Assembly (NCBI RefSeq): GCF_006345805.1
Contig: NC_043005.1
Coordinates: forward strand, 22,940,001-23,004,000
Reading direction: 5' to 3'
DNA length: 64,000 bases
Source of the DNA: Octopus sinensis
Taxonomy: Eukaryota
Shown here: one piece after another, positions 3,932 to 39,144 of the stretch
Layout: each line of letters begins with the position of its first letter
Numbering within the stretch: the first letter of the stretch is position 1
The notes under the pieces: generated by a model
The model's input: only the letters and a program-made list of their open reading frames with translations
The model's database searches: none
Told to the model about the DNA's origin: nothing
Made by a program: the position numbers and the translations under genes

Positions 3932-4819
3932 TATATCATCATCATTATCGTTTAATGTCCGCTTTCCACACTAGCATGGGTTGGATGGTTTGACTGAGGG
4001 CTGGCGAACCAGATGGCTGCACCAGGCTCCAGTCTTGATCTGGCAGAGTTTCTACAGATAGATGCCCTTCCTAACGCCAACCACTCCAAGAGTGTAGTGG
4101 GTGCTTTTACATGTCACCAGCACGGGAGCCATTCAGGCGGTACTGGCAATGACCTCGCTCGAATCTTTTTACACATGTCACTGGCACAGGTGCCAGTAAG
4201 GCGATGCTGGTAACGATCCCGCTCGAATGGTGCCTTTTACATGCCACTGGCACGGAAGCCAGTTAGCCGACCTGGCAACGATCATGCTCAGATGGTGCTC
4301 TTAGCACCCTACTAGCACAGGGCACAAGTGCCAGTAAGGCGACGCTGGTAACGATCACACTCGAATGGTGCTTTTTATGTGCCACTGGCACAGTAGCTGG
4401 ATAGCCGCTCTGTCAACTATCACTCTCATATGGTGCTCTTTGCCATCATCGAATTTTACTTTGATTTTGATTTCACCTGCCTCAACAGGTCTTTGCAAGC
4501 AGCGTTTAGTGTCCAAAGTAGGAAAATGTATGCACAAGTCGGCTGGTTATGACCCTGGCATAGGCCATGAGGTTATGGTCGCATTTGGCTTGCCGGGTCT
4601 TCTCAAGCACAGCATGTTTCCAAAGATCTAGGTCATTAGTCATTTCCTTGGTGAGGCCTAAAGTTTGAAGGTCGTGCTTCACCACTTCATCCCAGGTCTT
4701 CCTGGGTCTACCTCTTCAAAAGGTTCTCTCAACCACTAGGATGTGGCACTTTTTCCCACAGCTATCCTCAACTATTCTCGCCACATGTCCATACCAGTGC
4801 AGTCGTCTCTCTTGCACAC

Positions 4820-5041: not shown

Positions 5042-7590
5042 TACACATATATATGTATATACAGTGTAGCCAAGTATAATCTTATAGATTAAAGCGGATG
5101 CATTTTTGTATATGTTTGTATAAGTGTAAAGGAATCTCTGTATTTTCTATAACTATTTAGTATATGGTTGGTCATTGTGACCATTTAGCATTGACCTAGT
5201 TTTCTTGCTACAAAATCTAATTGCCAAATAGGAGTAAAGTCTAAGACAATATAATCCCCTTTCCACTTTAATTTTCTTTAGGAATAACTTCTGAAGTTTA
5301 TTTCACCCCTACCTACTTCTATAAATAGAAAATCTCTTTTGTCTCCATTCAACAGAAGATCCCTCCCTACTTTCTAGCAGTTCAAAATAACTTAAAGAAT
5401 ATTCTTCAGTCAGAAGATAAATTCTAATACCTTAATGTTCTTAACATTCAAATGAACATCTGTCTATATATCTACCCTCTTTATAATGTTATCAATTAAC
5501 ATGAAAATACGTATATGTATTGATGGAGAACCTCTATTAATGGCTGATGATTGCTCAACATTTTAAAACTGTTGTAATACTTACAATGTTTAATAAAATG
5601 ATGTAGCGTGAAACGATCGTACCAAATTACCAAAGATATTCTTGTTGCTTATTTTGATTATAATCACCCCATGGATTTATATGGATAACACCATACAAAA
5701 TTCTGGTGCATCTAATTTAAGTACCACATTCATTTGAATCTAAATTTTGCTGAATATATATATATTATTTGGACCTTTGGTATATGGCTAGAAGTATACC
5801 AATTAAAGCACTGTTACCATTCAGGCTACCTGATATCATCCATAGTTATGATATAACTGTCAATGGATCTACGTCAGGAATTTCACAGTGTTTGTTGAGT
5901 TTATAATGAATGAGGGAAATGGAAATGGAGTGTACAAGAATCTTTATGCAACACAACAATGATTTCGACCCATCCTACATCTGTCCATTGCAGATGGGAT
6001 ATTGTACAGCTAGGTGTTGCACCCACCAGTGCAGAATGCATCCCATTTTAAATTAGCTATTTTGCTAAATATACTTGGTTTCACTTGGCATGTTGTGGTC
6101 ACCAGTAGGTTGTTGGCTATAGTAATAGAGGATGGATACAATTTCTAGGTTATAACTGGTAAATGGGTCTGGCTATAGCTCACAGTGAATACACACCATA
6201 GGGTAAAGTAATAAAAGATAGAGAATAAAATAGCTAGATGACCTGAGCTGGAAAGCCCTTCATCATACATCTTTTCAATAAATGCTGACCTAGGATTAAA
6301 CAGCAACCACAACATATTATATTCAAATATTTATTTACCATCATTTTAACAAGATTGGTAAAATATGACATAGTAACACATGGGAGAATAAGTTACAGAA
6401 CAATAATAAGGTACAATTAATTGTAATAAAATATGAAGAGATGTATCAACTTACCACTCTGTCTGAGAGTTTACCCCAGAAAGGTGAAGCAATAGCATAC
6501 GTCACAGATATTAGAAGAAACACAAGACCAACAAGTGAACCACTTAATGAGAACTGAAACAAACAGAAGTACAGATATCAATGAATGTGTGTGTGTGTGT
6601 GTGTGTGTGTGTTAGTAAGTAAAACCTTATACACATATATGTAGATCTCTAATACTTATTACTAATCTATGATTTTCATTCTGGGCTCTCATGGCCAAGA
6701 AAAAAGAAAAATATAAAGAAAATATTAAACTATCTATTAAATTATATTTAGTATTTAGCCACTAAAGCTGCTTGCAGTAGATCTCCTTTGTTATCGTTTG
6801 GTTTGGGTTTTGATGTGGACAACACTTTTCATATCCCACCAAAGAGATAACAATACCTTACATGGGTGAAAACTTTTTTTAGCCTGGGGTGCCAGTGTTT
6901 CTCCTTTCCTTACCCAATGTCTTCGGTGCTTGACATTTTTATAGAGAACCCATTTCTCATCACCAGTCACTATTCAGTCTAAAAAAGGTTCATTCTTGAG
7001 ATGTGATAGCAAAGAAGAACATACATTCACTCTCTGCATGCGATTAACCTCAGAAAGTTTGAGGAACCTATTGACCCAATTTGCTTTTCCAATGGCACGC
7101 TGATATCGATGACTGGTTGAATGAACAAATCAAAGCTTCTCTGCTAGTTCCTCAACAGTTATGATGAGATTTTGTTCCACCAGGGTTTGCAGGATATTCT
7201 CGCTGAGCTCTACAGATCTTCTAAGATGAGGCTCATTGTGGAGGCTGTAGATTCCGGTTTGGAATTTCTGGAGCCACTGTTGACATTGGCTTATGCTTAC
7301 TGTCCAGTCCCCATATACTACATTAATATTCCTCACACTTTCCATTGTGTTGTTGCCTTTATTGAACTCATAAAGCAAACTATGCCAAATATGCTCCTTT
7401 GTCACTTCCATTATAGCTTTGAAAAAAATAACTGTTACAATTGATCTGCATTCTTCAAAACTTGCACTAAAAATAAGGTGAAGGTAAAATTACAACCTGC
7501 TTTTATAGCCAGTTGATGCAGGTAGTTTATCCCATCCCTCTCTGGCTTTTAGTTCATGCAATTGAAAAACCCACATTATTTATGGAATGA

Positions 7591-7626
<36 letters not shown>

Positions 7627-10600
7627 TTTATAAGGAGATTTTGACAGTGACATCAAAGTTTTGATGGGTTATTATTTGCCTCAATAAATTTCATCTAACC
7701 CATGCAAGCATGGAAAATTGGATGTAAAATCATTGCTAAATGCTACTGCAGATGATAGTGATATGAATGTAATTTTGTGTGTATGTGTGTGTCTGTGTAT
7801 ACCTAGTATTTTTTTTCTTTTTTGAAAATATGAGAGAAAGTTAATGTAGTGAATTAAATCAAGATTCAAACACAGATTTAAGCTTAATGCTTAATATGTC
7901 TTAATAATTCTATTAAATATATATACTAACATATTTTATATCTGTGATTTTATTTATGTCTATAGTGCATATTCTTGGATCTGAGTGTATGTGTGTGTGT
8001 GCTAGCATGAGTTTGCTTGTTTGTGTTTCGATGTGCATGTTTTATGTGTGTGTGTTTAGTTACTTTGTCTAAATTTTGGCTTTTTAAGAAGTATAGTTTT
8101 CAGACTATTTCAAGTTAATGTATCTGCTACAAATAGAAATACTTACTTACCATACGTAAATGTGGTTCAAGTATTGGATCTAAGCCTGCCCAGACTGTTG
8201 ATGACATGAAGATTACAAAACACATTACTAATAACATTGGAGACTTTAATAATGGCCTCATAATATTCTTCTTCTGTTCAACTTTCCAGTCTGAAAACAA
8301 CAAAAATGCAAAGTGATGACTTTATATATTAACACACCTAAGACTATTCAATTTCCTTTGATATAAATTTAAATTGGAATACAACCAAATACTAACTTAA
8401 TTATAGAGAAGTTAGACATTTCTATAAATCTCTCTAAATTCTTGATTATTTTAACCCTTTAGTGTTTAAACTAACTCTGTCTGACCCAAACAGCCTAACT
8501 GTACCATATTCAAAATAGCTAAATCTGGCCTCTTATCCCTACTTTACAACATCATTCTAAAAATAAACAACCACATCATTGAAATCTAGAAGCTAAGAGA
8601 TAATACATTATTAATTTCAAAACAATGTGAATAAATAAGCATTAAATTTAACAGAATAGTCTGAATGTTAAAGGGTTAAAGCTTACAACAGCCTTCATTG
8701 TGTTGGTAACATGGTAAAATGTACCCAGTATACCCTATAAGGTGGCTGGTGTAAGGAAAGGTATCCAGCCATGGAAACCATGCCAAAACAAAATATCAGT
8801 GAAGTGTGGCTCCCAGACATACCCCAAATAAGAACTAACTTAGACTGTGACAACAGATGCAAAATGAAGATGATGGTAATGAAACACATGTATTCATTTG
8901 AAACAATGTCAAGAATAGGTTAATTATGTGATCTACATTCATTTTTATATGTCAAAATTGGACAGGTTTATTTGTTGGAACAATTGCTTTTTTATTGTTT
9001 TTATTATTTCTTGTTTTCACATGATAATTTTCTGGATTTTACCTTTAGAGTCTAAATTTACAAAATTTATATTTATTCTATGTTTAACCCTTTCGTTACC
9101 AAACTGCCCAAAGCCGCCCGAAAAAAAATTTTGGTTAATGTGACCAAACCGCCCAAACCCGCCCGTATTTACCTATTCATATTTAAATGAGAATATCAGA
9201 ACAAATCTCTTTTGTACATTCATGAAAAGACATATTATACTTCATAAACAGTTCATCTACAGTTTTGTACAATAATCGAAGTGTAATTTTAATTCCGTGA
9301 ATTTTGGGAGATTTTTTTCCGAAATTTGTTCCTATTGTGTTTTCAAAATTTGTAATTCTGACAAAAAATGGATACGAATTTCATTATATCAAGCAGCGAG
9401 TCAGAATTCGAAGGATTTTCTACTGAAGACCTTCATAAATCTAACTCTATGACTGAAAAAAAAAAGCATGTGGTATTTGACAATGAATCTGATGTTTCAT
9501 TTTCCGAAAGTGAAAACAGTGAATCCAAGAGCTCCGACAGCGATAAAGAAAATGAATTGGCACCTGAATGGAGTGAAAATTTAAAAACTGTTTCTTTCGG
9601 TGATTTTTCTGAAGAAACTGGACCAAGCCACAGACTTTCCCAGGAGAGTAAAGCCTTAGACTATTTCTTTTCACTTTTTCGAATGAGCCTATTTGAAATC
9701 ATTACGGCAGAAACGAACCGTTACGCTAAATGTAAACAAAGCGAAAGAAAGGATAGTTAGTGGTTTCCCATAACCTTAAATGAAATATTATTATGGGTAT
9801 CAGAAAGTTACCCAGAATAACAAATTCTATCATAAAATTTTGTTGTATACCCAATTGAATATTAGCTAATAACCCATTTTCTATAGTGATGTTTGAACAA
9901 AATTTTAATAATTTTATATTTTGTTGAATTTACCTGTATCTACCTGCAATTAGAGTCACTTTGTGACAAAAATTATAGTATAGAATTGGTTTAGAACATT
10001 TCATTAAATTATCTTCCAAAAATCAGATTAATATATTGATAAATAAAAAAGTTATAGTTGTTTAATAAAACCAGACTAAATTTATGATTATGTTAGAAAT
10101 TAATTGAAACACTTAAGGGGTGTATTTTGGTCAGAAATATAGTAACGAAAGGGTTAAATTGATTCAGTTTCTTATCATCATAACATAAACTCTTCAAATT
10201 GGGAATTTTGTTTATTTCTAAATGTAGAATGTTAATATTTTGCCCACTAAGTCACTGGATGAAATTTGATGCTGATTGAAATGTGTGTGTGTATTTGTAT
10301 ATATAGGAAACAGCATATTCAAAACACAATTATATTCTAATATGATCTTTTTTATTAAAGCTTTCTCATATCTGCATATCAGACCCTTATAGTTCATTTG
10401 GGACAACAAAACCCCTAAGTTCATCTTTATTGCCAATGTTTCCAGACTAGCTCAACTTCATCATCAGGAGGTGCAGTAATTTTAACTTTTGTGGTATATA
10501 TATGTATATAAAAAATTAATAATATCAAAGGGTAATCTGGAATATTATAAATTTCCATTACCAGTGGCCTAGCATGTAAAAATTTAGTCAATAGACTATA

Positions 10601-11052
10601 TATTATTCATATAAATACAGTGTATATTTAAACACATACCTCTTATGTGTTTAAATGTACACTGTATTTATATGAATAATATATTGTATATTGACTAAAT
10701 TTTTACACGATAAGACACTGGTAATGGAAATTTGTAATATTCCAGATTACCTTTTGATACTATTAATTATTGATAATTTTCTGGATAATTTTCGAAATGA
10801 AAAAGCTGGCATGTTTATTTACTGCCAACAGGTAGCTGCGCTTGTGCAGTAGATTTGAAAAATTAGAATGTATCAGCATGGGGCATATACTGGATTGCCT
10901 CGTGTATATATATTTAATCTAAGGTGCACCTGCTAAAGAAGGCTTCACCTAGCAAATTATTTTATTTGCTAAAAAAATCTGAAACCATTGGTCCAGGAGT
11001 TAGTGCAAGTAGTCCTATGATGGCTACCTCTTATGTGTTTAAATGTACACTG

Positions 11053-11102
<50 letters not shown>

Positions 11103-11167
11103 TATGTATGTATGCATGTATATATATGTGTGTGTGCATGTTATATACACACATATATATGATGATG

Positions 11168-11198
<31 letters not shown>

Positions 11199-14100
11199 TA
11201 TGTATGTATGCATGTATATATATATGTGTGTGTGTGCATGTTATATACACACATATATATGATGATGATATATATATATATATATGCCATCATTATCATT
11301 TTATAACCACTTTTCATGTTGGTATGCATTAGATGAGTCATCAGGTTCTAAGTTCTTATTCAGATTTACTTTCCTCCCGGACTTATCAGGGAAGAACATC
11401 TTACTCAATATTTTATTTTCACATGGTTTCTAGGACTGGATTCTCTTCCAAATACTCACCACTTACAGAATGTAGTGGTGCATTTTACTGTCATACTAAC
11501 ACAAGAGGCTGTTATGTCTTCAACAAGACAATACAACAAGTACCTCCCACCCTCATGTTGTCTCTACTTAACAAAGTGTGTGTGTGTGTGTGTGTGTGAG
11601 AGAGTTGTGTATCAGTTAGAGGATGGCCAATAAATCAATGCAGCAAGCAAAAATACTTATGGTTCACCCATTTACATTTCTTAGATGAAATGAGATCAAC
11701 AAAATTTGTATCAGACAAAGTACCAGAGCCAAAAAAATTGACATGAAAACCCTTGTATGCAGTGCCCAAAAATAGCCACTGTCTAATGACTTTAAATTAT
11801 TAATTCATGTCTATATCAAATATTTCATTATTTCTGAAATCATTTATATAACAAATGGATTTGGGAAATCTGGGATTTTTGTTTGTAACACTTGGGACAA
11901 TTTCAAAAGACTGAAAAATATTAGCACAATTCACAGAAAAAAGCCTGGTGAATATGTCCAGGTGTGTTACATCATGACAGACTTTACATTATAGCAATGA
12001 GAGCACATCATTGATTAAGTCATTAATATCAATGAAAAAACTCTGACAAGCCAACTGATTGATGGAGCAAACAATTAGCTAAGAAATCAATTACTTAATT
12101 CATTAAAGAGAATATACCAAGTCTGAATACATCATGACAGAACTAGAACAATGAGGCAAGCTGCTGATGAGGTGATAAATGGTAATGAAAGGACTCTGAC
12201 AGACCAAATGATTGACTGATCAAACAATTAGTCAAGCAATTGATTAGTTAATTAAGAGAGTATATCCAGTTTGGATACATCATGACAGGCCTGTAACAAT
12301 GAGGGCACATCTTTGATGAGGTTGCAAATGACAATGAAAGCACTCTGAGAAACCAAGTCATTAAGTGACTGATTGATTAACTGATTGATTGATTGATCAG
12401 TTGGTTAGTTGGTTGGTTGGTTGGTTGGTTGATTCATTCATTGACCAAACAATTAGTCTATTGACTGAAACCAATAAAAGAATAAAAGAGTGAAACACTG
12501 ACCTTTTCGTTTTGATAATATCCAAAAGGTGAAAGGAACCACACACCAAAATATAGAACCAACAACAACAAATGGTAAGATGAAGCCTCCAACCTGATTA
12601 TTTCCAATAGAAAATAGAAATCATATAAGAAAAGAATTATTGGTTAATTCTATATTTGTTGGACAAATAAGAAAATGAAACATTCAAAGACATTGTTAGA
12701 ATATACACAGGGATTGTCCGTTTATTCATAAACACACACCACACACACACACACACACACACCTTACAAACACATACACATATATATCTGCAAGGAAGTC
12801 TAAAATTCAGTTTCCATTATACACTCAAGTTCATACATTTTGTGGAAGGGTATAATCAATTATACTGAACACAATATTTAATACGTACATTAATATATCA
12901 ACCACAGAAAGTTAAACTAAGGCATTTACTCTAGTGATTCTACCAATTTTGTCTTATCATGTCTTGGGCCCTCAACTTTTGATAGAGTCATAGGGATGCT
13001 ATCATGACAAATTGCACACCAGTTTTCTCTATGTGTCACAGTTGTATGCCAGAGCTCAAGTGTCTGCTAACAATTTGCCTGTCCATTCCTTGATGTTGTT
13101 TGTACATCATTTTGCCAGTTGGTTCCTTAAAAAATGGTTTTCATGAGTCTATTGGATTTCGTTAGATGGCCATATCATCTCAGCTTTCTTTTCTTCACCA
13201 TTTTAAGAAGATCTTCAAGGAGGCTAATGCAATACTGAATGGTTTTGTGAAGTTCCATTTACGATATGATTTAAGTACAAAATGTTTAAGGTGTTGTGAT
13301 AGCATCTCATTCACAATGCTTGTATCTTCCTCAGAATCTCTGCTGTGAGAATCTATGCCTCAGTTGCATACAGAAAGATGGAAAATAGCAGTATACAACA
13401 TACGGAGTCTGATTTTCCTGGCAACGAGTGCAGTTTTCACACAAGGCACCATTGGAGAGTGGTTCCATTTCACCATAGGTTTCCATTAAGCCTGAATCTT
13501 CTCTCCACCCACTTCAACATCTTCATGGAACTGATCATGAGCAATGTCCTTGAAAACCATATAGCAGAGTCAGTACTGGAGATGAGTACATCGAAAATCT
13601 AAGATTTATTGATAACAGTGAGGGGCTGGCAGGAAGGGAAGAGGAAATGATTGAATTAGTCAGCCATCTTGATAGAACTTCTGCCAAGAATGATATGGAA
13701 ATCAGTGCTGCAGAAATACAAACTCATGACAAATACCAATGATTTCATCTCATCCAACTTCTCTGTACAAGGACAGAAACTAGAAACGGTGCAGCAGATT
13801 AAATATCTGGAAGCAATTATTAATGATAAAAGATTAAAACCTGAAATTCTCACAAGTGCCATACAGATAATAACTGCACTAACAAAACTCATGGCAATGC
13901 AGAAAATTAAAAAGATTGATATAAACAACAAAACCAGAGTTTTGGGTACACTGGTACTTCCCATTAATACACAGTGGTCTCATATACAGTTACACTTCCA
14001 CCCTGGGCTATCAAAACATAGATGTGCCTCATTTCAGAAATTCGCAGAATTGTTAGAGCATCAGAAAAATAGCTATCTGTATTTCTTCCAATTCATATTA

Positions 14101-17100
14101 TCCATCTCCCACCAAGGTCAACTTTGCCTTTCATCCTTTCAGGGCTGATCATATAAAGTACCAATCATGTACAGGGAACAATGTAATCAACTAACCCCAA
14201 CCGAAAATTTGAAATGATTCTCCTTTTTATTAAGGCAGTGAGGTGGCAGAATCATTAACATGTTGGATAAAAATACTCAGCGGCATTTCTTTTGCCTTTA
14301 CATTCCAAGTTCCATTACACCTGAGGACAACTTTGCTTTTCATCCTTTTGAGAGTCAATAAGGACAAAGTACCAGTCACGTATTGATCAAATAGCCCCAC
14401 CACCTCTTAAAAATTGCTGTCCTTGTGCCAAAATTTGAAATTATTATTGAGTGAACAGTGCATGCCATCAAAATGACACTGGGGTAAAATATATGAAGCC
14501 CAGTATACCCATCATGACTATCTGTCTGATAAGGGTACACCAGGCACAAGCATCACAACCATATGTACATGAAATGGTGATCTCATCTCAAGGTAAACAG
14601 TACATGACATTATTATTATTATTATCATTATTATTATTATTATTATTATTAAGGCAGTGAGCTGGAAGAATCATTAGCATGCTGGGCGAAATGCTTAGTG
14701 GTATTTCGTATGCCACTACGTTCTGAGTTCAAGATCTGCTGAGGTCGACTTTGCCTTTCATCCTTTCAGAGTCAATGAAATAAGTACCAGTTATGCACTG
14801 GGGTCAATGTAATTGACTAGTCCTCTTCCCACCAAAATTTTCAAGGCCTTGTGCCTAGAGTAGAAATAATTATCATTATTATTATTATTATTAAGGCAGC
14901 AAGCCGGCAGAATCGTTAACATGCCAGACAAAATGCTTGGTGATATTTTGCCCATTGTTACATTCTGAGTTCAAATTCTGCTGAGGTCTACTTTGCCTTT
15001 CATCCTTTCAGGGGTCGATAAAATAAGTACCCGTTGAACACTGGGGTCGGTGTAATCGATTCATCACCTCCCCCAAAATTCCTGCCCTTGTGGCAAAATT
15101 TGAAACCATTATTTTTTTTTTTTTCTGTCGAGGTCAACTTTGCTTTTCATCTTTTTGGGGTCAATGTAATCAATTCATCCCCTCCCACAAAACTGCTGCT
15201 CTTGTGGGAAAATTTTAAACTATTATTGTTATTATTATATATACTAATTACACTACATCACCTGTAATTCATTCATAATTTATCATTTGAATTCTCATAA
15301 TCTAAAATAATTTCATATAATGCTTCAACAATATGAATTATCTAGGTATTTGATCAGAAAACAAAAGAAATTAGTTATTACACTGTATAAAGCTCCACCA
15401 AGTGCTGGTCCTACGGCAAGACCAATTCCTACAAACGTCTCTGTTATACCCTGTAAAAAGCATAAAATCAATGAGAAAGAAAACATATTTTATCAAAAAT
15501 ATATAATGAATGAGGTGTGTGGTGAAAAGGAGGAAGAGATAGAGACTTGTAACATAAAGGAAGAGATGAAAAGGAGGCAGAGATCGAGGCTTGTAACATA
15601 AGTACAACTGTGAGTTTTTGTGAAACAATCAGCTATGAGACATAGCCTGATCTTTGGGTGGAATAAGATTCCAATCTTACAGGAGGTAACATAATGAGTC
15701 ATGAAAACTAAAAGAAAGATTGGGAGAAATTGTAACGTGAAAGGATCTATCATCGAAGCACTGGCAGGGTGTCGAGATCCTTTCTAGTCACATACAAAAA
15801 TTCTTGTAGAAAACAAACAGACGAAACTCAGGTTAAAGGTGAACAGACAACTTGGTTTATTGATTCATGGTTGTACGTTGTCTGATGGGGAATAGACAGC
15901 CTCTGATATACTGCTGGTGTTGGTCGTTGAGGTTGGTTGAAGTTGGTTGAAGCTTGGTGTGTGGCTGTCAGAGCCAGGAAAACCGTGACCGATCGCAGTG
16001 CTGTCTTGAGCCGAAGAGAGAGATTTGAGGTTCGCGGGCTCGAGAGATGTTTTCCCGCACATGCGCATGGGGAAGACTTCCGGTGGCCACCCGGAAGTAG
16101 TCCCATTCTGCGCATGCGCGCCGAACCCTACACAGTAGCATCACTACAGGGCTCCCCTCCGAGTGCGAAGTACGGCAACCAGAATATTGTGGTGGTGCTG
16201 CAGAAAACAGAAGGCTTGCCGATCCCCCAGAAGACTTGGTACATACTATTATACAATAAGAAACATTTTAAAGTTAAATGTAAATTGTTTTTGAAAGTTT
16301 CTTGGGCCAATGCACTGTTCTGCCCGATTTTGTAACATACGGTGTGCTCGGGGCACCCGTTGACGGCGAGGGTGGTGTTGTAGGAGCCGGTGAAGGTGTT
16401 GGGCAGGTGAAGGCGTTTGTGCAGGTGAAGGCGCTTGTGCAGGTGAAAGTGTTGTTAAAGGTGCATAGGTGGGTGTGTCAAGGTTGTCATCAAAAGATGA
16501 AGACGTCTCAAAATGTGCCTTTTTTAAACGGTCCACGAAACGGTCTCCGAACGACCATTTATCTCAATCGTGAAAACCTTTGGTGTGCGAGAAAGCACAC
16601 GAAAAGGTCCTTTATAGGGAGAAACAAGTGGGCCCTTCACAGAATCGTCCCGAACAAAAACATGCGACCAGGTGTTCATATCCGGTGGAAGATGGGACGG
16701 TGGAGATTGCTTTCTGGGAAGCATGGGCGGAAGGTTTGAAAAATATTCCCGCAGTCTGGTGACATAGGTCGCCGGATCATGGGGCGGGGAAGTGTCTGGC
16801 ACCAACATCGTACCGGGCAATGCCAGTGTGGTACCATACAGCAGCTCTGCAGCAGAAAACCCCAGGTCTGCCTTGACAGCAGTCCGACAGCCGAGAAGCA
16901 CAATGGGCAGAAATTCGATCCAGGACTGTGGGTCCGAAGAGGCACGAAGAGCGGCCTTGAGCTGTCTATGGAACCGCTCAACCAATCCATTAGACGCTGG
17001 ATGGTAGCTTGTGGTGTGGATATGGTGCATACCCAAAATTCGCGACAATTCGCGAAATAGCGAGGCCTCAAACTGTCGTCCACGATCAGTTGTCAATCGG

Positions 17101-20100
17101 GACGGGACTCCGAAGCGAGAAATCCAGTTTGAAACGAAAGCTCGCACAACAGTCTCAGCAGAAATGTCTGCTATCGGAATGGCTTCTGGCCAGCGGGAGA
17201 AACGATCGACACAAGTTAATAGATAAGAGAACCCGCGACTCACAGGCCATGGTCCAACCAGATCGATGTGGACATGGCGAAAACGGGCCTCCGTGGGGGG
17301 AAATTGTCCAAGCGGGGCACGAACGTGCCGTTGAATCTTGGATCGTTGACACTTGGAGCAGGTGCGTGTCCAACAAGTAATTGTGCGACGCATATTCGGC
17401 CAGAAAACCGAGCAGTGATTAGTTTGAGGGTGGCAGCGATGCCAGGATGTGATAAGGAGTGCAGTGCTTCAAACACTGAGCGTTGATGGGTCTCAGGCAC
17501 CAGTGGCCTGGGAGATCCAGTTGAAGTGTCACAAAGAATGGTGCCTTCGGCTGACGGAAGCGGAAGGTAGGAAAACTGGCACACAGAGAACTTGGGAGAA
17601 GTTAAATCTAACGACGCCAAAGGTGGCTGCTCCTGCGATATGGCAGCTAAGTCGATAGCAGCAGGAGACGAAAGGGCGCAAACTGGAAGGCGAGAGAGAG
17701 CGTCAGCAGGAACGTTCTCTTTTCCAGGTATGTGTCGAATGTTGCTAGTAAATTGAGAGATAAAATCCAGGTGCCGAAAAGCACGGGGTGAGAGTTTGTC
17801 CGTTTTTGAAAACAGGGCAAACGTAAGGGGCTTGTGATCCGTATAGATCACAAAATCTCGCCCTTCAAGTTGATGCTGGAAATGACGAACCGATAGGTAG
17901 ATCGCTAGGAGCTCACGATCAAAGGTGCTGTATCGTCGTTCAGCTGGTTGCAGTTGACGGGAAAAGAAGGCTAGAGGTCGAACATGGTCATCCACTGTGT
18001 GTTGTAACACAGCGCCAATCGCAGTGTCCGATGCGTCCACAGTCAAAGAGAGAGAAGCACCAGGAACTGGATGTGCAAGCAAAAAACAGAAGCCAGCTCC
18101 TTCTTAATGGACTCAAAGGCTGTCACTGCCTCAACAGAGAGGGTGACTTGACTGTCCTTTCTAGGAGAGTCCTTTAACCCTGGTGAGAGGTAGCAGCTTA
18201 TCTGCACAACCGGGAATGAAGCGTCGGTAGAAATTGACCATCCCTAGATAATGCCTGAGCTGGCGCAAGGAAGTGGGGGGTGCGATGCGTTGAATGGCAT
18301 CGACTTTTGACGAGAGGGGGCTGATTCCAGTCGAATCAATATGATGCCCTAGAAAATCTAGGGAAGAGCGTCCGAAAACACACTTGTCGGGGTTTATGCG
18401 TATGCTATACGCGCGAAGACGCTGGAAGAGTTGAGAAAGGTGCCGGAGATGATTTTCTCGTGTGTCGCTCGCAATGAGTATGTCATCGACATAGGCAAAC
18501 ACAAAATCAAGACCGCGGACAACCTCATCAATGAAACGCTGGAAGGTGCTAGTAGCATTCCGCAAACCGAAACTCATGTACAAAAACTCAAAACACCCAA
18601 ACGGGGTAGTGATTGCAGTTTTTGGAACGTCGGCTGGGTTGACCGGTATTTGGTGGTAAGCGCGTATCAGATCGACCTTCGAAAAAATGGTACAACCATG
18701 GAGATTTGCTGTAAAGTCCCGGATTTCTAATCGGATAGCGATCGGCTATTGTGACGGCATTGAGGCGTCGATAGTCTCCAACCGGGCGAAAATCAGACTC
18801 GCCCTTTCGCGCCAAATGAAGGGGAGATGCCCATGGGCTGGTGGAGGGGCGTATAAGCCAAGTTGAAGCATGTGCTCAAACTCGGCTCTGGCCGTTTTAA
18901 GTCGGTCTGGCGCTAGGCGCCGGGGGCGTGAGAATACAGGTGGCCCATTGGTGGTGATGAAATGGAGGGTCGAGTGGGTAGGATTTTCCGGTTTAAAGGC
19001 AATGTCCACTAGCTCCGGAAATGAAACAAAAGAGAGTGAAAAGGGTCTCCAGAGGTGGCAACAAAGAATGTCGGGCTAAGGACCGCAGTGGTGGAACTCC
19101 CAGTCGGTGTAGAGAGCGACGTCGTGCTATCAAGAAGCCTCCGACGCCTGACATCCACCAATAGGTAAACCTATCCAGGAAATCAGCGCCGAGAATAGGA
19201 TGCGGGATGTCAGCGATGACGAAAACCCATCGAAAGTCTCGACGAAGGTTGAGGTTGAGGCGCAGCGAAATCTGACCGTAAGTGGTTATGGGAGACGAGT
19301 CAATAGCATGCAAGACAATCGAAGAGCGCTTGGGCTTGTCTGCAGCCAGACGAAGGGGCCAGATGCTGCAACAGGAGCCGGTGTCTACCATGAAGAATTT
19401 CTCCGACACCAGATCTTTTACAAAAACTGCACGATTTTTGGGAATGGCGATGGAAGAAGGTGACGTGCTCAACTCCTCCGGACTTAGTTTTCCGAGGGCT
19501 TGAAAATGCACGGCTGGGTACACCGATCTGCCCTTTTGGTAGAGCGACTACGACTGCGTTGTCGGCGCTCGATCGCACGGGATAGATCGTCGATTCGCCG
19601 CGTGAGCGCATCAATCCGCTCGGTTAGTGAAATTTGCGCAGGGCCCCCTATACATGCACAGAGGCCTCGCGATGGAGATGGATTCGGAAATTCCAGTATT
19701 CCATCGGCCATCGTGGCAATCTGAATATTGCTCTCCCCCGAACGTGTGTTGCGGCGGAGGATTTCTGCTTTCACAGACGCGTATGTGGCATCCGGGTGGG
19801 GACTTATTATTAGATCCCTGATCGATGCGGCGAGTCGGGGATGTAAGCCGGAATATAGCAGGTGCAACTGCTGCTGTGGAGAAATGGCATGTGCATCAAA
19901 ATACCACTCCACTTGGGCAAACCACAGGCCCATATCCCCCGTAAATGAAGGCAAACCTGAAGCCGTGCCTTTGTCGGAAGGAATCTGTGAGAAGGGGGCA
20001 GAAGGTATGGTCTAGAAGTGGAGAGAGAACACGTGGAACCGAGAAGGCAATTCAAAATTGTGTTTGTGTGTGCACCTCGTGGGTAGCAAAAAAAGGAATA

Positions 20101-21046
20101 GGTGTGTACAAGGAAAACAAAATACAGAAAAGAAAAAAAATGAATGTGTGTGTGTTTTTTCTTTTTTCTTTGTTTTTTTTTTTTTGTACTGTGTGCGATG
20201 AATAAGGCTATTTGACCCACCTCGCCGTGCTGAAAAGGAGAAAATAGGAAAATAAATGTGAATTTCCGCGCTCTTCGGCCCCAAAAAACACCTGTTCGCT
20301 GTGTCTTTTTCTATCCTGTTCTTTTTCTCAACTAGGGGTCACCAATTGTAACGTGAAAGGATCTATCATCGAAGCACTGGCAGGGTGTCGAGATCCTTTC
20401 TAGTCACATACAAAAATTCTTGTAGAAAACAAACAGACGAAACTCAGGTTAAAGGTGAACAGACAACTTGGTTTATTGATTCATGGTTGTACGTTGTCTG
20501 ATGGGGGAATAGACAGCCTCTGAGATACTGCTGGTGTTGGTCGTTGAGGTTGGTTGAAGTTGGTTGAAGCTGGTGTGTGGCTGTCAGAGCCAGGAAAACC
20601 GTGACCGATCGCAGTGCTGTCTTGAGCCGAAGAGAGAGATTTGAGGTTCGCGGGCTCGAGAGATGTTTTCCCGCACATGCGCATGGGGAAGACTTCCGGT
20701 GGCCACCCGGAAGTAGTCCCATTCTGCGCATGCGCGCCGAACCCTACACAGTAGCATCACTACAAAATAATAGGTGTGAGGTATTCAGATTGTAAAACAA
20801 TGGGTCAGTATAAATCAGGACATTGTTGCAGAATTCGAACACTGGACCTCAAGAAGACAATGTGCCCAATGTCAGTAAATGCATAAAAGAACCTATTACA
20901 CTCTCAGAGTGGCTGGTGTTAGGAAGGGCATCCAGCTGTAGAAACCTTGCCAAATAAGACTGGAGTTTGATGCAGCCCCTCAACTTACCAGCTCTGGTCA
21001 AACCATCCAACCCATGCCAGCATGGACAACGGACGTTAAATGATGA

Positions 21047-32565: not shown

Positions 32566-35500
32566 TCATCATCATTTAACATCCATTGTCCATGCTGGCA
32601 TGGGTTGGACGGTTTGACTGGGCTGGCACACTGGAAGGCTGCCATCTCTTGCCAGCCTCACAGCATACCTAATTAAAGGACATAACTCCTAAACTAATCC
32701 CCTGGCCCCTTTTCATTCCACCATCTTTTCCACAGCAGCCACTGACCGGTTGTGCTAATCTGTCTCCAGGAATAGAGAGCATTCACCATATTCCCTTCCA
32801 TATCAGCTAACTCTGATAAGTGTAAAGTTATGTAATTGGTTTGTTACCTAACACCTTAATTGTATTCTTTACATGAAACCAATTGGTAAGACCAGCCATG
32901 CTAGATATTTAATACTATACATTTTGGATAATATATATATTTAATATATATATATATATATTCAAATATGAATTAGAAGCATCTCAAGGTATATAAACAA
33001 AACTGAATACACACACACAAGATGTGTGTGTCGTTAGTTCATCAAGTGACTGCATTGTTTAGGTGTAAGAGAATATATTCTTAATGTGTATGTGTGCTCA
33101 ATTTTGTTTATATATCTCAAGCTGCTTCTAATTCATATCTGAATTCTTTCCATGGCATGAAACATTGGGACATGCCAGCAGATGGTTCTTAAACCATTTA
33201 ATTTATAGTCATAGCTGGTGAGAGAGCATGCAGCAAGCCCTATTCAGTATGTGACATTGATAAGTCAAAACAATGATGAAACATCAATGTTTGTCACTCC
33301 GAAAAAGAGATTTTGATATGAGTTGTCTTGCTTGTCTATGTCTTGTTTGTCTATGACTTACTTTCAGGCATTGAGAATATATTCTCTTTGCCTTAAAAAA
33401 CATTGCCGGCAAAGGACTGCGGCTGCACAGTAGATTTTGAAAAAGTTAGGACATATAAACACAGGGCAAGTAGTTTCGATCGTCCGTGTGAATACGTTTA
33501 GGTGGTCCTGCTGAAGAAGATTGCACCTAACGAGTTCCTTCACTCGCTAATCTAAAATCAGAAACCAATTGGTCCAGGAAACTAGATGGTAAAATGTTTT
33601 TCAGTTTTCAATTCGTTCCTGTTGAATTTTATCCCTAATTTTTGTGGTTATAGAACCTAGCTGTTCTTTCTAGCATGTTGAATTCCTATAAGTGGATTCT
33701 TTATGTGTTTAAATGCACACTATATTGTATATGTATATATATATCTTTAAACAGATTTCTTTCAGTTTCTGTCTACTAAATCCATTAACAAGGCTTAGGT
33801 CTGCTACAAGCTACATAGAAGACACTTGCTCAAGGTGCTATACAGAAGGACTGAACCCAGAACCATGTGGTTGAGAAGCAAACTTCTTACCACACATATA
33901 TAATCATCAAAGAATTTCTTCATCAGAAAATATAGACACTTGTATATTTGTGAATAGAGTGGGTACATTAATCAAAGTATACAGCATAATATATCCATTA
34001 CAGCCATTTAACCAATTGGTCTCACATATGAAAGTTAGATAACTGGACTGTTATCTAATAGATGTGCTCTTCAGAGATTGCAGATACTGAAAAAATATGG
34101 TGACTGCTCTCTGTTATTGGAGATGAGGTTATGTCAAATCCGGTTTGTGGGTGCTCTTGAAAAGACAAAACAAAGGTACATAAGGCAATAAACTGAGGGG
34201 TTGATCAAAAGTTATATCTCTTGGCCTCAAAAACCTGAGTGAGTTGTCATATAGCAAGTCTGGTGGGTAAATATGCATGCACAGGGGAAAACTAAAGGGG
34301 TCAGTATGTGTGGAAGGTTGATATGTGTACATAGGGCCTTTTTGATATGGGAAATTTGGTGGGTGCCCTATCTTTTAACCCTATGTTTGGGTACAAATGT
34401 GTATGTGTGTCCATGTATGTATGGTTCAGACAAAATTTTGCGGGGTCCTCAAGGTGTAATGGTGGGAGGACCAATGGTAGCAGTCCCAGCATTAATAATC
34501 ATGGTGCTCACTCACTTTCCATAGGCAAGCCATTATATACCTTCTCTCATGTTGGGACAGGCTGAAAATTTAATTTCTGCAGTTTAGGTAGATGTCTGGG
34601 TGAAGAGAATTCTTTTAACACAATTCTTTTCTTGACTAGGCATAACCTGCACTTTCTGTTACTATTAAAATGAGGCTTGCACTTTTTCAAGATTTTCCAC
34701 TTAGTGTTGAAATCTATAGTACTTTTCTTCAACGACCATATATGCCCTGCCAGAGCATCTCTCCTGGATAATTTGAGGATTTATAGTTGTTAAATCTGAT
34801 CTTAAGAGGGCCATCTGTCATACCCATATACTTCTGCACATTTGCTTGCCTGCTGAGGTCCTTTAAATTACTATTACTTCATAAACGACTGTTTCCATGT
34901 TGCTGTGGCCTTTAAAGGGACAAGTGGTGTTGCCTCTGCATGAGCATCTTGTTTCTGTCCCAGGCGTGGATCCACCCTACTAATATTTTCTTTATACTAG
35001 ATGCATTGTGTGTGTGTGTGTGCACTTGCATGCATGTGTGTGTGTGTGTGTGTGCGTGCACATATGTATGTTTGTGAGTTGGTGTCTTCTTGTTATGATA
35101 TTGGATGAATGCTGTAAATAAGTGTCACTGTTATACAAGCGGTGTCCTTCATTTCCAACCCACAGTGAAAGCATGTCCAACCAGGGGAAAAAATTTCTTT
35201 ATTTGGAAACAAGAGAAGGTTAGAAGTAAGAAAGACATCTGGCTGTAGAAAATCGACCTCAACAAATTTCATCCAACCCAATCAAGCATGGAAAAGTAGA
35301 CATTAAATAATGATGATGATAATGATGAGGATGATATATTCATATTTATGTGTGTGCATATAAATATGTATACATGTGCAGATCTATGTTCAAGTGTGTA
35401 TGTGTATGTGTGTGTTTGACACTGCACTGTAGATTATAGAAAAGGCAAATGATAACTTATAGATAAATACAATGTGTTAAACTGAAATAAGTACTAAGGT

Positions 35501-36014
35501 CAATATGACTGACTAACCTTGAAGGCAGTGCCTTGACCTGGTTGTAGCCTAATGACAAAAAGCAGCAAAAGAACGAAACATGCATGCATGCACACACACA
35601 CACACAAATGGAGACAATATTAATATGCAAGCATACATTTATCATCATCATCATTTAATATCTGCTTTCCGTGCTGGCATGGGTTGGGCGGTTTGATTGA
35701 GGATTGATGAGCTGTGGGGAAGGCAGTTCTTTTAGCAGAGAGATGATCTGGCATAAAACTTGCTGTTAAATTAGTACCAGTTGTCTTGCAATGCTTTTCC
35801 CTGGAACCTACTATGGTGAGCAAGAGAGTGGTGAAAGTCTTGTACAAGCTTTTGTCACTTAAATCCACTTATGTAACAGATGTCACACTGTCATTTCGTT
35901 TCTTAATCTGTTTTGTATTTTATAAAGTCCGATGATGATGGCTATCCATGCACATACAAGGACAAATGTAAATCAGAAGAACCCGGCTGAACGTGAGATG
36001 GCAAGGCAGTCATC

Positions 36015-36048
<34 letters not shown>

Positions 36049-37016
36049 GTGCACATATGTATGTTTGTGAGTTGGTGTCTTCTTGTTATGATATTGGATG
36101 AATGCTGTAAATAAGTGTCACTGTTATACAAGCGGTGTCCTTCATTTCCAACCCACAGTGAAAGCATGTCCAACCAGGGGAAAAAATTTCTTTATTTGGA
36201 AACAAGAGAAGGTTAGAAGTAAGAAAGACATCTGGCTGTAGAAAATCGACCTCAACAAATTTCATCCAACCCAATCAAGCATGGAAAAGTAGACATTAAA
36301 TAATGATGATGATAATGATGAGGATGATATATTCATATTTATGTGTGTGCATATAAATATGTATACATGTGCAGATCTATGTTCAAGTGTGTATGTGTAT
36401 GTGTGTGTTTGACACTGCACTGTAGATTATAGAAAAGGCAAATGATAACTTATAGATAAATACAATGTGTTAAACTGAAATAAGTACTAAGGTCAATATG
36501 ACTGACTAACCTTGAAGGCAGTGCCTTGACCTGGTTGTAGCCTAATGACAAAAAGCAGCAAAAGAACGAAACATGCATGCATGCACACACACACACACAC
36601 AAATGGAGACAATATTAATATGCAAGCATACATTTATCATCATCATCATTTAATATCTGCTTTCCGTGCTGGCATGGGTTGGGCGGTTTGATTGAGGATT
36701 GATGAGCTGTGGGGAAGGCAGTTCTTTTAGCAGAGAGATGATCTGGCATAAAACTTGCTGTTAAATTAGTACCAGTTGTCTTGCAATGCTTTTCCCTGGA
36801 ACCTACTATGGTGAGCAAGAGAGTGGTGAAAGTCTTGTACAAGCTTTTGTCACTTAAATCCACTTATGTAACAGATGTCACACTGTCATTTCGTTTCTTA
36901 ATCTGTTTTGTATTTTATAAAGTCCGATGATGATGGCTATCCATGCACATACAAGGACAAATGTAAATCAGAAGAACCCGGCTGAACGTGAGATGGCAAG
37001 GCAGTCATCATATATA

Positions 37017-37098
<82 letters not shown>

Positions 37099-37509
37099 AT
37101 CACCATCATCATCATCATCACTTAACATCTGTTTTCCATGCTGACATGGGTCGGATGGTTTGACTGAAAAACGGTAAGCTGGGGAGCTGCACCAGGTTCC
37201 AATCTGATTTGGCAAGGTTCCTACAGCTGGATGCCCTTCCCAATGCCAACCACCCCGAGAGTGTAGTGGGTGTCTTTTACGTGCCACCAGCACGAGGGCC
37301 ATTCACCTGACACCAGTATTGGCCTTGACTATGGTCTCACTTGGCTTGACAGATCTACACAAGCAGTGTATATCGCCGAAGGTCTCAGTCACTTATCACT
37401 GTCTATGAGGCCCAATGCTCAAGCAGTGCATTTTACGTGCCACCGGCATGGGTGCCAGTCAGATGGCAGTGGCATTGGCCATGACTATGATTTCACTCAG
37501 CTCGACAGG

Positions 37510-37542
<33 letters not shown>

Positions 37543-38059
37543 ATGGAGTGGATTAGTGAAAGAAAGGAGTACTCAACACATTGATAGAATTTACATACAT
37601 TATTATTTAAAAGTTTGCTTCCGTTCCATGCAACTTAAAGTTTTGTAGGCTTCTAACAGAAACCCAGCTCATTCAGGTTAGAGTACTGAATGAAGAAAGA
37701 CAGGAAGTCCAAGATGGCTACTGGAAAATGGGCTGCTGTTGATAAAGGCAGGTGACATAATGATGTTAGAAGTAAGGTTGGCATTTCAGTGACACCAGAT
37801 ACCTTTATACATAAATGCAAGACTACATACACACAGACATGCATGCACACACACATGCATGCACTCATCTATGTACATATACTTCTCCTCTCTTCCCTGC
37901 CCCTACACCACCAAACCTCAGTCCAATGCCTATTCCCACCCCCAGGGAACAAAAACAATATATACAATACACACATATATATATGTGTGTATATATGTAT
38001 GAAGGGATGTGTGTATGTATGTATGTATGCAGGGATTCGTGTGCATGTGTGTGCGTATG

Positions 38060-38151
<92 letters not shown>

Positions 38152-38560
38152 ATCACCATCATCATCATCATCACTTAACATCTGTTTTCCATGCTGACAT
38201 GGGTCGGATGGTTTGACTGAAAAACGGTAAGCTGGGGAGCTGCACCAGGTTCCAATCTGATTTGGCAAGGTTCCTACAGCTGGATGCCCTTCCAATGCCA
38301 ACCACCCCGAGAGTGTAGTGGGTGTCTTTTACGTGCCACCAGCACGAGGGCCATTCACCTGACACCAGTATTGGCCTTGACTATGGTCTCACTTGGCTTG
38401 ACAGATCTACACAAGCAGTGTATATCGCCGAAGGTCTCAGTCACTTATCACTGTCTATGAGGCCCAATGCTCAAGCAGTGCATTTTACGTGCCACCGGCA
38501 TGGGTGCCAGTCAGATGGCAGTGGCATTGGCCATGACTATGATTTCACTCAGCTCGACAG

Positions 38561-38592
<32 letters not shown>

Positions 38593-39112
38593 ATGGAGTG
38601 GATTAGTGAAAGAAAGGAGTACTCAACACATTGATAGAATTTACATACATTATTATTTAAAAGTTTGCTTCCGTTCCATGCAACTTAAAGTTTTGTAGGC
38701 TTCTAACAGAAACCCAGCTCATTCAGGTTTAGAGTACTGAATGAAGAAAGACAGGAAGTCCAAGATGGCTACTGGAAAATGGGCTGCTGTTGATAAAGGC
38801 AGGTGACATAATGATGTTAGAAGTAAGGTTGGCATTTCAGTGACACCAGATACCTTTATACATAAATGCAAGACTACATACACACAGACATGCATGCACA
38901 CACACATGCATGCACTCATCTATGTACATATACTTCTCCTCTCTTCCCTGCCCCTACACCACCAAACCTCAGTCCAATGCCTATTTCCCACCCCCAGGGA
39001 ACAAAAACAATATATACAATACACACATATATATATGTGTGTATATATGTATGAAGGGATGTGTGTATGTATGTATGTATGCAGGGATTCGTGTGCATGT
39101 GTGTGCGTATGC

Positions 39113-39144
<32 letters not shown>

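What the first reader, a model, noticed from the sequence alone, without database searches (positions are those of the whole stretch)
11950..12360. Fossil tandem hammerhead array (retrozyme / satellite-like trimer)
Seen: three diverged units (periods 160 and 148 bp) each carry TTGATTA, CTGATGA or TTGATGA, then exactly 16 nt, then GAAA, 4 nt, TC and TGA. Inference: reversing CpG-type decay gives approximately GTCG-CTGATGA-G-GTTG..CAAC-GAAA-GCGC-TC-CGAC, a type I hammerhead with palindromic stem III AGCGCT. Known: tandem hammerhead repeats occur as Schistosoma Sm-alpha, newt satellite 2, Dolichopoda pDo500 and metazoan non-LTR retrozymes. I do not know of one described for this unit. It lies 150 bp from exon 6.
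Basis: partly seen in the sequence, partly recalled or inferred. Interest (0 to 1): 0.7.

Follow-up and report, generated by a model that had tools for sequence, protein, structure and literature searches.

The report
Decayed Penelope terminal-repeat hammerhead trimer
These are three worn, side-by-side copies of what is likely the end piece of an old Penelope-like jumping gene, whose family consensus is predicted to fold as a minimal hammerhead (self-cutting) RNA with one unusual core pair; the copies have broken stems and are likely inert, so this is a fossil of a known kind.

Summary
The trimer and its boxes are real. The unit is not a satellite or retrozyme monomer. It is the 5' half of a dispersed ~305-nt repeat (family A1, roughly a thousand copies). 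A1 has Penelope-like (PLE) insertion anatomy: head-to-head arms in 38 of 79 loci and two fixed 3' ends. All 16 clean pairs have one short and one long arm. A1 is homologous to the 3' terminal repeat of a young PLE with an 882-aa RT plus GIY-YIG frame. The CpG-restored consensus folds into hammerhead stems I and II (1 of 60,000 shuffles matches), and three sister families keep the stems by compensatory changes. The three window units have broken stems, lie antisense in an intron, and are likely dead. The class is published (PLE minimal hammerheads, PMC4209133). This scan noted the same class and the U·G step before on other DNA. Cleavage is untested.

The parts
11950..12109 (+). Unit 1: 5' ~170 nt of a Penelope-like terminal repeat (family A1, subfamily with a ~30-nt longer 5' end)
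12110..12257 (+). Unit 2
   Evidence: nhmmer E 7.5e-20 to the family model
12258..12497 (+). Unit 3, running on into an expanded GATT/GGTT tract and probably further family sequence up to the host splice donor (assignment beyond 12417 uncertain)
12007..12047 (+). Decayed minimal-hammerhead motif 1 (core 12011-12017, GAAA 12034-12037, predicted cut after 12043); 14 of 45 positions differ from the consensus, 3 of 5 stem I and 2 of 5 stem II pairs remain
12160..12200 (+). Decayed motif 2 (core 12164-12170, GAAA 12187-12190); 14 of 45 differ, 3 of 5 stem I and 4 of 5 stem II pairs remain
12309..12349 (+). Decayed motif 3 (core 12313-12319, GAAA 12336-12339); 11 of 45 differ, 2 of 5 stem I and 4 of 5 stem II pairs remain
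12503..12593 (-). Host-gene exon (hydrophobic reading frame, GT donor at 12502); the array lies in the next intron, antisense to the host transcript
   Evidence: contigs of three runs guessed to be RNA leave the sequence at both 12503 and 12593; translation and splice sites
11797..11941 (+). A separate old dispersed repeat directly upstream; not part of the element
   Evidence: 17 other copies found; no hit of its model in 81 A1 loci

Best explanation
The three units are decayed tandem copies of the 5' half of a dispersed repeat that is likely the terminal repeat (pLTR) of an old endonuclease-bearing Penelope-like retrotransposon, whose master likely carried a minimal type I hammerhead with a U3·G8 wobble core. 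Shown: the family, its two fixed 3' ends, its inverted pairs, its homology to the 3' repeat of an RT plus GIY-YIG element, and the compensatory stem changes among four related families. Inferred: the element's protein nicked AT-rich DNA and reverse-transcribed its RNA from two internal start sites about 60 nt apart, which left solo and head-to-head stumps. The RNA was likely copied uncut, because stumps begin upstream of the predicted cut. The trimer likely arose once, at or soon after insertion, by template jumping or local duplication, and has since decayed neutrally. The ancestral motif would have cut weakly, as a dimer or with protein help. The window copies likely do not cut at all.
For: Dispersed family: 43 matches among 40 scored of 142 candidates. 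Across 81 independent loci, 147 arms average 84% identity to the consensus. Their 3' ends cluster at consensus ~246 and ~307. There are 39 head-to-head pairs in 38 of 79 loci, and the cleanly classed pairs are 16 short+long, 0 long+long and 1 short+short (a second listing of one locus) (p 3e-5). This is the published inverted-pLTR-plus-tail pattern (PMC3846280, PMC8557442 passages; PMC11167929). The A1 model hits the 3' repeat behind an 882-aa RT plus GIY-YIG frame (L278, model 49-308, E 1.2e-22). GIY-YIG remnants precede sister repeats in L184/L206 (PF01541 over cut-off), L179, L169 and L080. The consensus folds to stems I and II with pair probabilities 0.8-1.0. Sister families keep the fold with other letters: A2 has stem II GUCACA/UGUGAC with the same 5-nt loop and C3-G8, A3 has stem I CUA/UAG, stem II GUUGC/GCAAC and U3-A8, and A4 has stem I CCA/UGG. 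The unpaired G before stem II, the 4-5 bp stem I and the opposite-strand pairs match PLE minimal hammerheads (PMC4209133). The units differ from each other (0.23-0.31) as much as dispersed copies do (0.275 +/- 0.074). Contigs from runs labelled as two other organisms cover the array.
Against: No RT or GIY-YIG remnant was seen next to an A1 copy itself in 81 loci of +/-1.5 kb; the link runs through sister families. Pfam's RT hit on the 882-aa frame is below cut-off (E 0.0022) and Pfam reported no GIY-YIG on it. No Rfam hammerhead model hit the window region or five well-kept loci at E<=10. Stem III is not palindromic (self-duplex -1.7 versus -7.5 to -8.3 kcal/mol for palindromes). Between A1 and A2 the motif (34 of 41) is no better kept than the stretch before the tail (44 of 54), though better than the 35 nt upstream (20 of 35). 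There is no excess of copy ends at the predicted cut (2 of 25 in A3, 1.3 expected). The target-site duplication signal is weak (57 of 2000 controls as high). The window itself has no inverted arm and no tail. How the trimer formed is not resolved.
Confidence: 0.87

Rival explanations
1. A non-LTR retrozyme: the ~150-nt unit was a small RNA circle, cut and closed by its hammerhead and inserted as a multimer by PLE enzymes.
For: Unit length and tandem layout fit metazoan retrozymes (150-450 bp, PMC7229834 passages). The units are about as old as the insertion. Retrozymes are proposed to derive from pLTRs (bioRxiv 10.64898/2026.07.22.740005, abstract).
Against: The family is dispersed: 1 of 69 motif-bearing loci has two same-strand motifs, and the array's junction is found only at this locus and its duplicate. 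The junction joins consensus ~142 to the 5' end, not the predicted cut at 80/81. In other copies the sequence runs on to a tail.
Confidence: 0.06
2. A fold-back DNA element (MITE-like) with long inverted arms and central deletions; the hammerhead shape is incidental.
For: About half of the loci are palindromic with variable centres. The core has U3 and no Rfam hit.
Against: The arms are unequal by a fixed tail (16 of 16). The repeat is homologous to the 3' end of an RT plus GIY-YIG element. The stems covary across four families. Shuffles match in 1-6 of 60,000.
Confidence: 0.03
3. The array has been kept by the host as a functional RNA element in its intron.
For: It is shared with at least two other labelled organisms and lies 143 nt from an exon.
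Against: It is antisense to the host transcript. Each motif differs at 11-14 of 45 positions with broken stems. The contig from organism D differs at three positions inside stem II of unit 1. Divergence equals that of ordinary dispersed copies.
Confidence: 0.04

Closest known systems
Minimal type I hammerheads (min-HHR) in pLTRs of metazoan Penelope-like elements (Cervera and De la Pena 2014, PMC4209133; read parts 1-2 of 4, no supplements)
   Same: 4-5 bp helix I, one unpaired base between positions 9 and 10.1, G10.1-C11.1 pair, tiny helix III, mostly solo copies, pairs on opposite strands; the U3-A8 variant (here family A3) is described there.
   Different: A1 has U3·G8 as the family norm, a non-palindromic GGAC in helix III and a 5-bp helix II (7-8 bp in Schistosoma). 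The window copies are a decayed local trimer.
EN+ Penelope-like insertions with inverted pLTR and one-sided tail (PMC3846280 and PMC8557442, passages; PMC11167929, parts 1-2 of 4)
   Same: Head-to-head inverted arms, two fixed 3' ends in AC-rich sequence, tail on one arm, an ATG frame starting just before the tail, RT plus GIY-YIG upstream of the repeat in sister families.
   Different: The tail is ~60 nt rather than 30-40. No coding remnant was found beside A1 itself. The window holds only truncated direct copies.
Metazoan non-LTR retrozymes and hammerhead satellites (PMC7229834, passages; bioRxiv 10.64898/2026.07.22.740005, part 1 of 5; Sm-alpha, newt satellite 2 and pDo500 recalled)
   Same: Unit of ~150 nt, head-to-tail, one type I motif per unit, AT-rich.
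   Different: The family is not tandem, the motif is minimal rather than canonical, no unit is intact, and the junction is unique and unrelated to the cut site.

Membership tests
PLE minimal hammerhead | Core CUGANGA and GAAA, or a compensated 3-8 pair | tested here: not met
   U3 in 69 of 83 arms with G8 in 75 of 83; other core positions match. The 8 C3 copies share no linked variants. Sisters have C3-G8 and U3-A8.
PLE minimal hammerhead | Helix I of 4-5 bp closing an NUH cut site | tested here: met
   5 pairs with probabilities 0.81-1.0; triplet CUU or CUC
PLE minimal hammerhead | Unpaired base between 9 and 10.1, and G10.1-C11.1 closing helix II | tested here: met
   G in 71 of 83; helix II 5 bp after CpG restoration, pair probability 1.0; same layout in A2, A3, A4
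PLE minimal hammerhead | Palindromic 15.2-16.2 and loop 3 for dimer formation | tested here: not met
   GGAC; self-duplex -1.7 versus -7.5 to -8.3 kcal/mol. It could dimerise through tandem G·A pairs (inference).
PLE minimal hammerhead | Self-cleavage as a dimer or with protein | not testable with these tools
   No excess of copy ends at the predicted cut
EN+ Penelope-like element | Inverted 5'-truncated partner, head to head | tested here: met
   39 pairs in 38 of 79 loci
EN+ Penelope-like element | Tail on one arm only (two RT start sites) | tested here: met
   16 short+long, 0 long+long; 22 further pairs had one or both ends unclassified; sharper in A3
EN+ Penelope-like element | RT plus GIY-YIG frame upstream of the repeat | tested here: inconclusive
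   Met for sisters A2, A3 and A4; not seen beside A1 in 81 loci
EN+ Penelope-like element | Repeat plus tail hold the start of the ORF | tested here: inconclusive
   An ATG frame of ~28 codons is kept across the four families, 9 of 16 A1/A2 differences at third positions; no full-length copy with that start was found
EN+ Penelope-like element | Variable target-site duplication | tested here: inconclusive
   Mean shared flank word 5.5 versus 4.96 +/- 0.26 nt; 57 of 2000 controls as high
Non-LTR retrozyme | Family occurs as tandem multimers of one unit | tested here: not met
   1 of 69 motif-bearing loci with two same-strand motifs; junction unique
Non-LTR retrozyme | [quoted passage not shown] | tested here: not met
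   All three units have broken stems
Non-LTR retrozyme | Linear and circular monomer RNAs | not testable with these tools
   Only contigs, none on record as RNA
Rfam Hammerhead_1 (RF00163) | Score at the gathering threshold | tested here: not met
   No hit at E<=10 in window 11000-13200 or in 5 loci, a young A4 copy among them; other families in this genome do pass
MITE / fold-back DNA transposon | Equal terminal inverted repeats | tested here: not met
   0 of 16 clean pairs have equal ends

The most novel reading that the evidence does not exclude
Family A1 is a natural stepping stone: a Penelope lineage that spread to about a thousand copies while its hammerhead carried an uncompensated U3·G8 wobble, lying on the tree between C3-G8 and U3-A8 lineages. 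A young sister with intact frames carries C at position 9. Together these would show that Penelope hammerheads are held to their fold while catalytic-core letters drift, so they act as slow, protein-assisted ribozymes or as protein-binding scaffolds. The four related natural cores could be compared side by side.
Probability: 0.35. Interest if true: 0.5.

Novelty: new member of a known kind. Interest (0 to 1): 0.24.

Why it matters
The locus itself is an inert fossil. Its use is as a pointer to a set of related Penelope terminal repeats with natural core variants (C3-G8, U3·G8, U3-A8, C9) that Rfam models miss. They offer a ready series for asking whether Penelope hammerheads must cut at all, a question left open by PMC11167929 (cleavage needs protein and is not needed for insertion in vitro). 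It is also a small example of a terminal repeat turning into a local tandem without being a retrozyme.

Tried and rejected
Rfam scans gave no hammerhead hit on the window region or five loci. The Rfam hits elsewhere in the genome (8 over cut-off among 52 matches) are other families. An early idea that the head is a coding remnant of a hAT-like transposase was dropped: the majority consensus has a stop there and the coding signal lies in the tail. The upstream repeat at 11797-11941 as the element's body: rejected, no hit in 81 A1 loci, although 2 of 17 of its loci had an A1 arm nearby. An intact 811-aa PLE family found by RT similarity is not the parent: different endonuclease, no shared repeat. 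A C3 subfamily inside A1: no linked variants. Copy ends at the predicted cut: no excess in A3; A1 showed 5 arm starts within 76-84 by eye, not tested further. Expression: no RNA holder listed. Short contigs from runs guessed to be RNA cover 12160-12363 without differences and show no joint, which cannot show strand, ends or circles. The protein-database search needs 40 aa and the tail frame has 29. Lunse et al. 2017 on PLE hammerhead variants was not held.

Full report
Observation. The array is real. TRF gives 11995-12356, period ~153, 2.4 copies, 75% matches. The array has no CpG left. Rfam finds no hammerhead in 11000-13200 at E<=10.

The unit is part of a dispersed family. The window lies in a 2.72-Gb animal genome (G000; octopus-like by earlier scan notes and my recall of its repeats, not tested). 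Unit 2 has 43 matches among 40 scored of 142 candidates. I gathered 81 independent loci, 57 anchored on the head and 24 on the tail, after dropping 14 duplicates or window copies. The element is ~305 nt. 147 arms in 79 loci average 84% identity to the consensus. Copy number is rough: the tail pattern has 26 exact hits and matches 1 of 71 head-anchored arms, and the head pattern has 33 hits and matches 0 of 17 tail-anchored arms, so the order is a thousand.

The consensus motif. Column counts over 83 arms give stem I GUCA/UGAC (plus a U-A pair), core UUGAUGA, one G, stem II GUCGC/GCGAC around a 5-nt loop, GAAA, GGAC, U, then U or C. Four CpG sites in stem II show the expected mix of CG, TG and CA, which justifies restoring them. 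Position 3 does not: T 69, C 8, A 5, G 1, followed by T. In the 17 arms not chosen on the head it is T 10, C 4, A 2, G 1. The C copies form no subfamily. So the master likely had U3 opposite G8. The restored consensus folds into stems I and II as its minimum-energy structure. A descriptor written after seeing it is matched by 6 (relaxed) and 1 (strict) of 60,000 shuffles. In tail-anchored arms the boxes are 141 of 159 identical, the stems 184 of 211 and the rest 2610 of 3199. The rest includes a repetitive tract, and dead copies are not expected to keep the boxes better.

Covariation comes from sister families. A generic pattern with C3 gave 50 hits and 0 control hits, mostly a family A2 that is homologous over head and tail. 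A2 has C3-G8 (C in 7 of 9 arms not chosen on the core), the same extra G and loop, and a 6-bp stem II with one swapped pair and one pair added on both strands. The swapped pair is also what CpG decay would give, but it is fixed in A2. A translated search with the tail (17,924 candidates, 150 scored) led to A3: stem I CUA/UAG, U3-A8 (U 22, A 23 of 25), stem II GUUGC/GCAAC, palindromic minimal stem III. A4 has stem I CCA/UGG and C at position 9 in 22 of 22 matched copies out of 30 loci. On an unrooted tree of the tail region (28 rows, one A4 row mislabelled A3), A1 copies sit between A3 and A2+A4, both outer groups with strong support. The direction of change is not shown. Against over-reading: the A1/A2 motif (34 of 41) is no better kept than the stretch before the tail (44 of 54).

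The family is a Penelope-like terminal repeat. Arm 3' ends pile up at consensus ~246 and ~307, with a third pile at ~175 that I take for alignment breaks at an AAT tract. Of 39 head-to-head pairs, 16 are short+long, none long+long, one short+short (the same locus listed twice), and 22 have an unclassified end. PMC3846280 and PMC8557442 (passages) describe this inverted repeat with a one-sided tail. PMC11167929 (parts 1-2 of 4) ties the tail to two internal RT start sites near the ORF start, and reports that its hammerhead cuts only with protein and is not needed for insertion in vitro. Here an ATG frame starts just before the short end and is kept across all four families. GIY-YIG remnants lie upstream of A3 (L184/L206, PF01541 23.1 bits against a cut-off of 22.6; L179) and of A2-type repeats (L169, L080). 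L278 holds an 882-aa frame with RT and GIY-YIG motifs, a 3' repeat that the A1 model hits at E 1.2e-22, and an inverted copy at its 5' end. Pfam's RT score on it is below cut-off. No coding remnant was seen next to A1 itself. PMC4209133 (parts 1-2 of 4) lists the short helix I, the unpaired base, solo copies and opposite-strand pairs for PLE minimal hammerheads, with low activity even as dimers.

The trimer. The units belong to an A1 subfamily with a longer 5' end (L004, L015, L027, L030). They differ from each other by 0.23-0.31 at non-CpG sites, like any two dispersed copies (0.275 +/- 0.074), and share few private changes. The tandem therefore formed at or soon after insertion. Its junction occurs only here and in a duplicate of this locus, and is not at the predicted cut. 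Two A1 loci show short direct tandems of other parts, and one A2 copy is duplicated with its flanking microsatellites, so such tandems arise now and then. Template jumping and local duplication cannot be told apart. Each window motif has 11-14 changes in 45 nt and broken stems. The array is antisense in the intron after exon 12503-12593. Contigs from runs labelled as organisms D and E cover it.

Novelty. The class is published. Three searches found no family-wide U3·G8 core in a PLE. One passage in PMC7151607 lists a natural prokaryotic variant with U3 and G8 behind a 2-nt insertion, and PMC3088659 (passages and section 3 part 2 of 7) covers U3-A8. Lunse et al. 2017 was not held and no supplements were read; either may already hold this variant. 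PMC13282606 (passages) reports Penelope expansions in an octopus and does not mention ribozymes. PMC6765202 and PMC7229834 were seen as passages, the 2026 preprint as part 1 of 5. Earlier scan notes describe the same class, and one names the U·G stepping stone; I read them after reaching each reading. No note matched this sequence or place.

Verdict. A real but ordinary fossil: a dead trimer of a Penelope-like terminal repeat with a minimal hammerhead, not a retrozyme. Interest 0.24.

Noticed in passing
G000:C9:22903000-22912500 (L245) versus window 5887-15386: A second copy of this whole region 43 kb upstream, 97.8% identical with 138 gap openings against 36 mismatches; looks like an uncollapsed, indel-rich assembly duplicate.
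   Followed up: partly
L247-L279 (family A4): Young Penelope-like family with frames of 882-914 aa; its hammerhead-shaped motif has C at the normally invariant position 9 in 22 of 22 matched copies.
   Followed up: partly
L178-L205 (family A3): Very abundant younger family with a U3-A8 minimal hammerhead and very sharp short and long ends. L177 mixes the A1 stem I with the A3 core.
   Followed up: partly
L158:1470-1960: A 275-nt direct duplication of an A2-type copy with a palindromic stem III, including its flanking TA/TG tracts; two identical motifs.
   Followed up: no
window 11797-11941: Copy of an unrelated old ~190-nt dispersed repeat.
   Followed up: partly
window 12455-12489: A 35-nt stretch matched by contigs with summed depth 266,000 against 36 for single-copy DNA; resembles the tail of a very abundant short repeat.
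   Followed up: no
L068-L087: Other hammerhead families that do pass Rfam Hammerhead_1, mostly followed by AATAAA.
   Followed up: no
L238-L243: A young PLE family with open frames of 811-850 aa, unrelated in its 3' end to A1-A4.
   Followed up: no
window ~15900-20800: Broken frames with RT-, RNase H- and integrase-like motifs between two similar end segments, likely a Gypsy-type LTR retrotransposon (motifs recognised from recall).
   Followed up: no
window ~35000-39150: Runs of near-identical ~1-kb blocks, seen as repeating microsatellite patterns in TRF.
   Followed up: no
window 4109-4440: A 64-66-nt tandem repeat, 3.3 copies.
   Followed up: no
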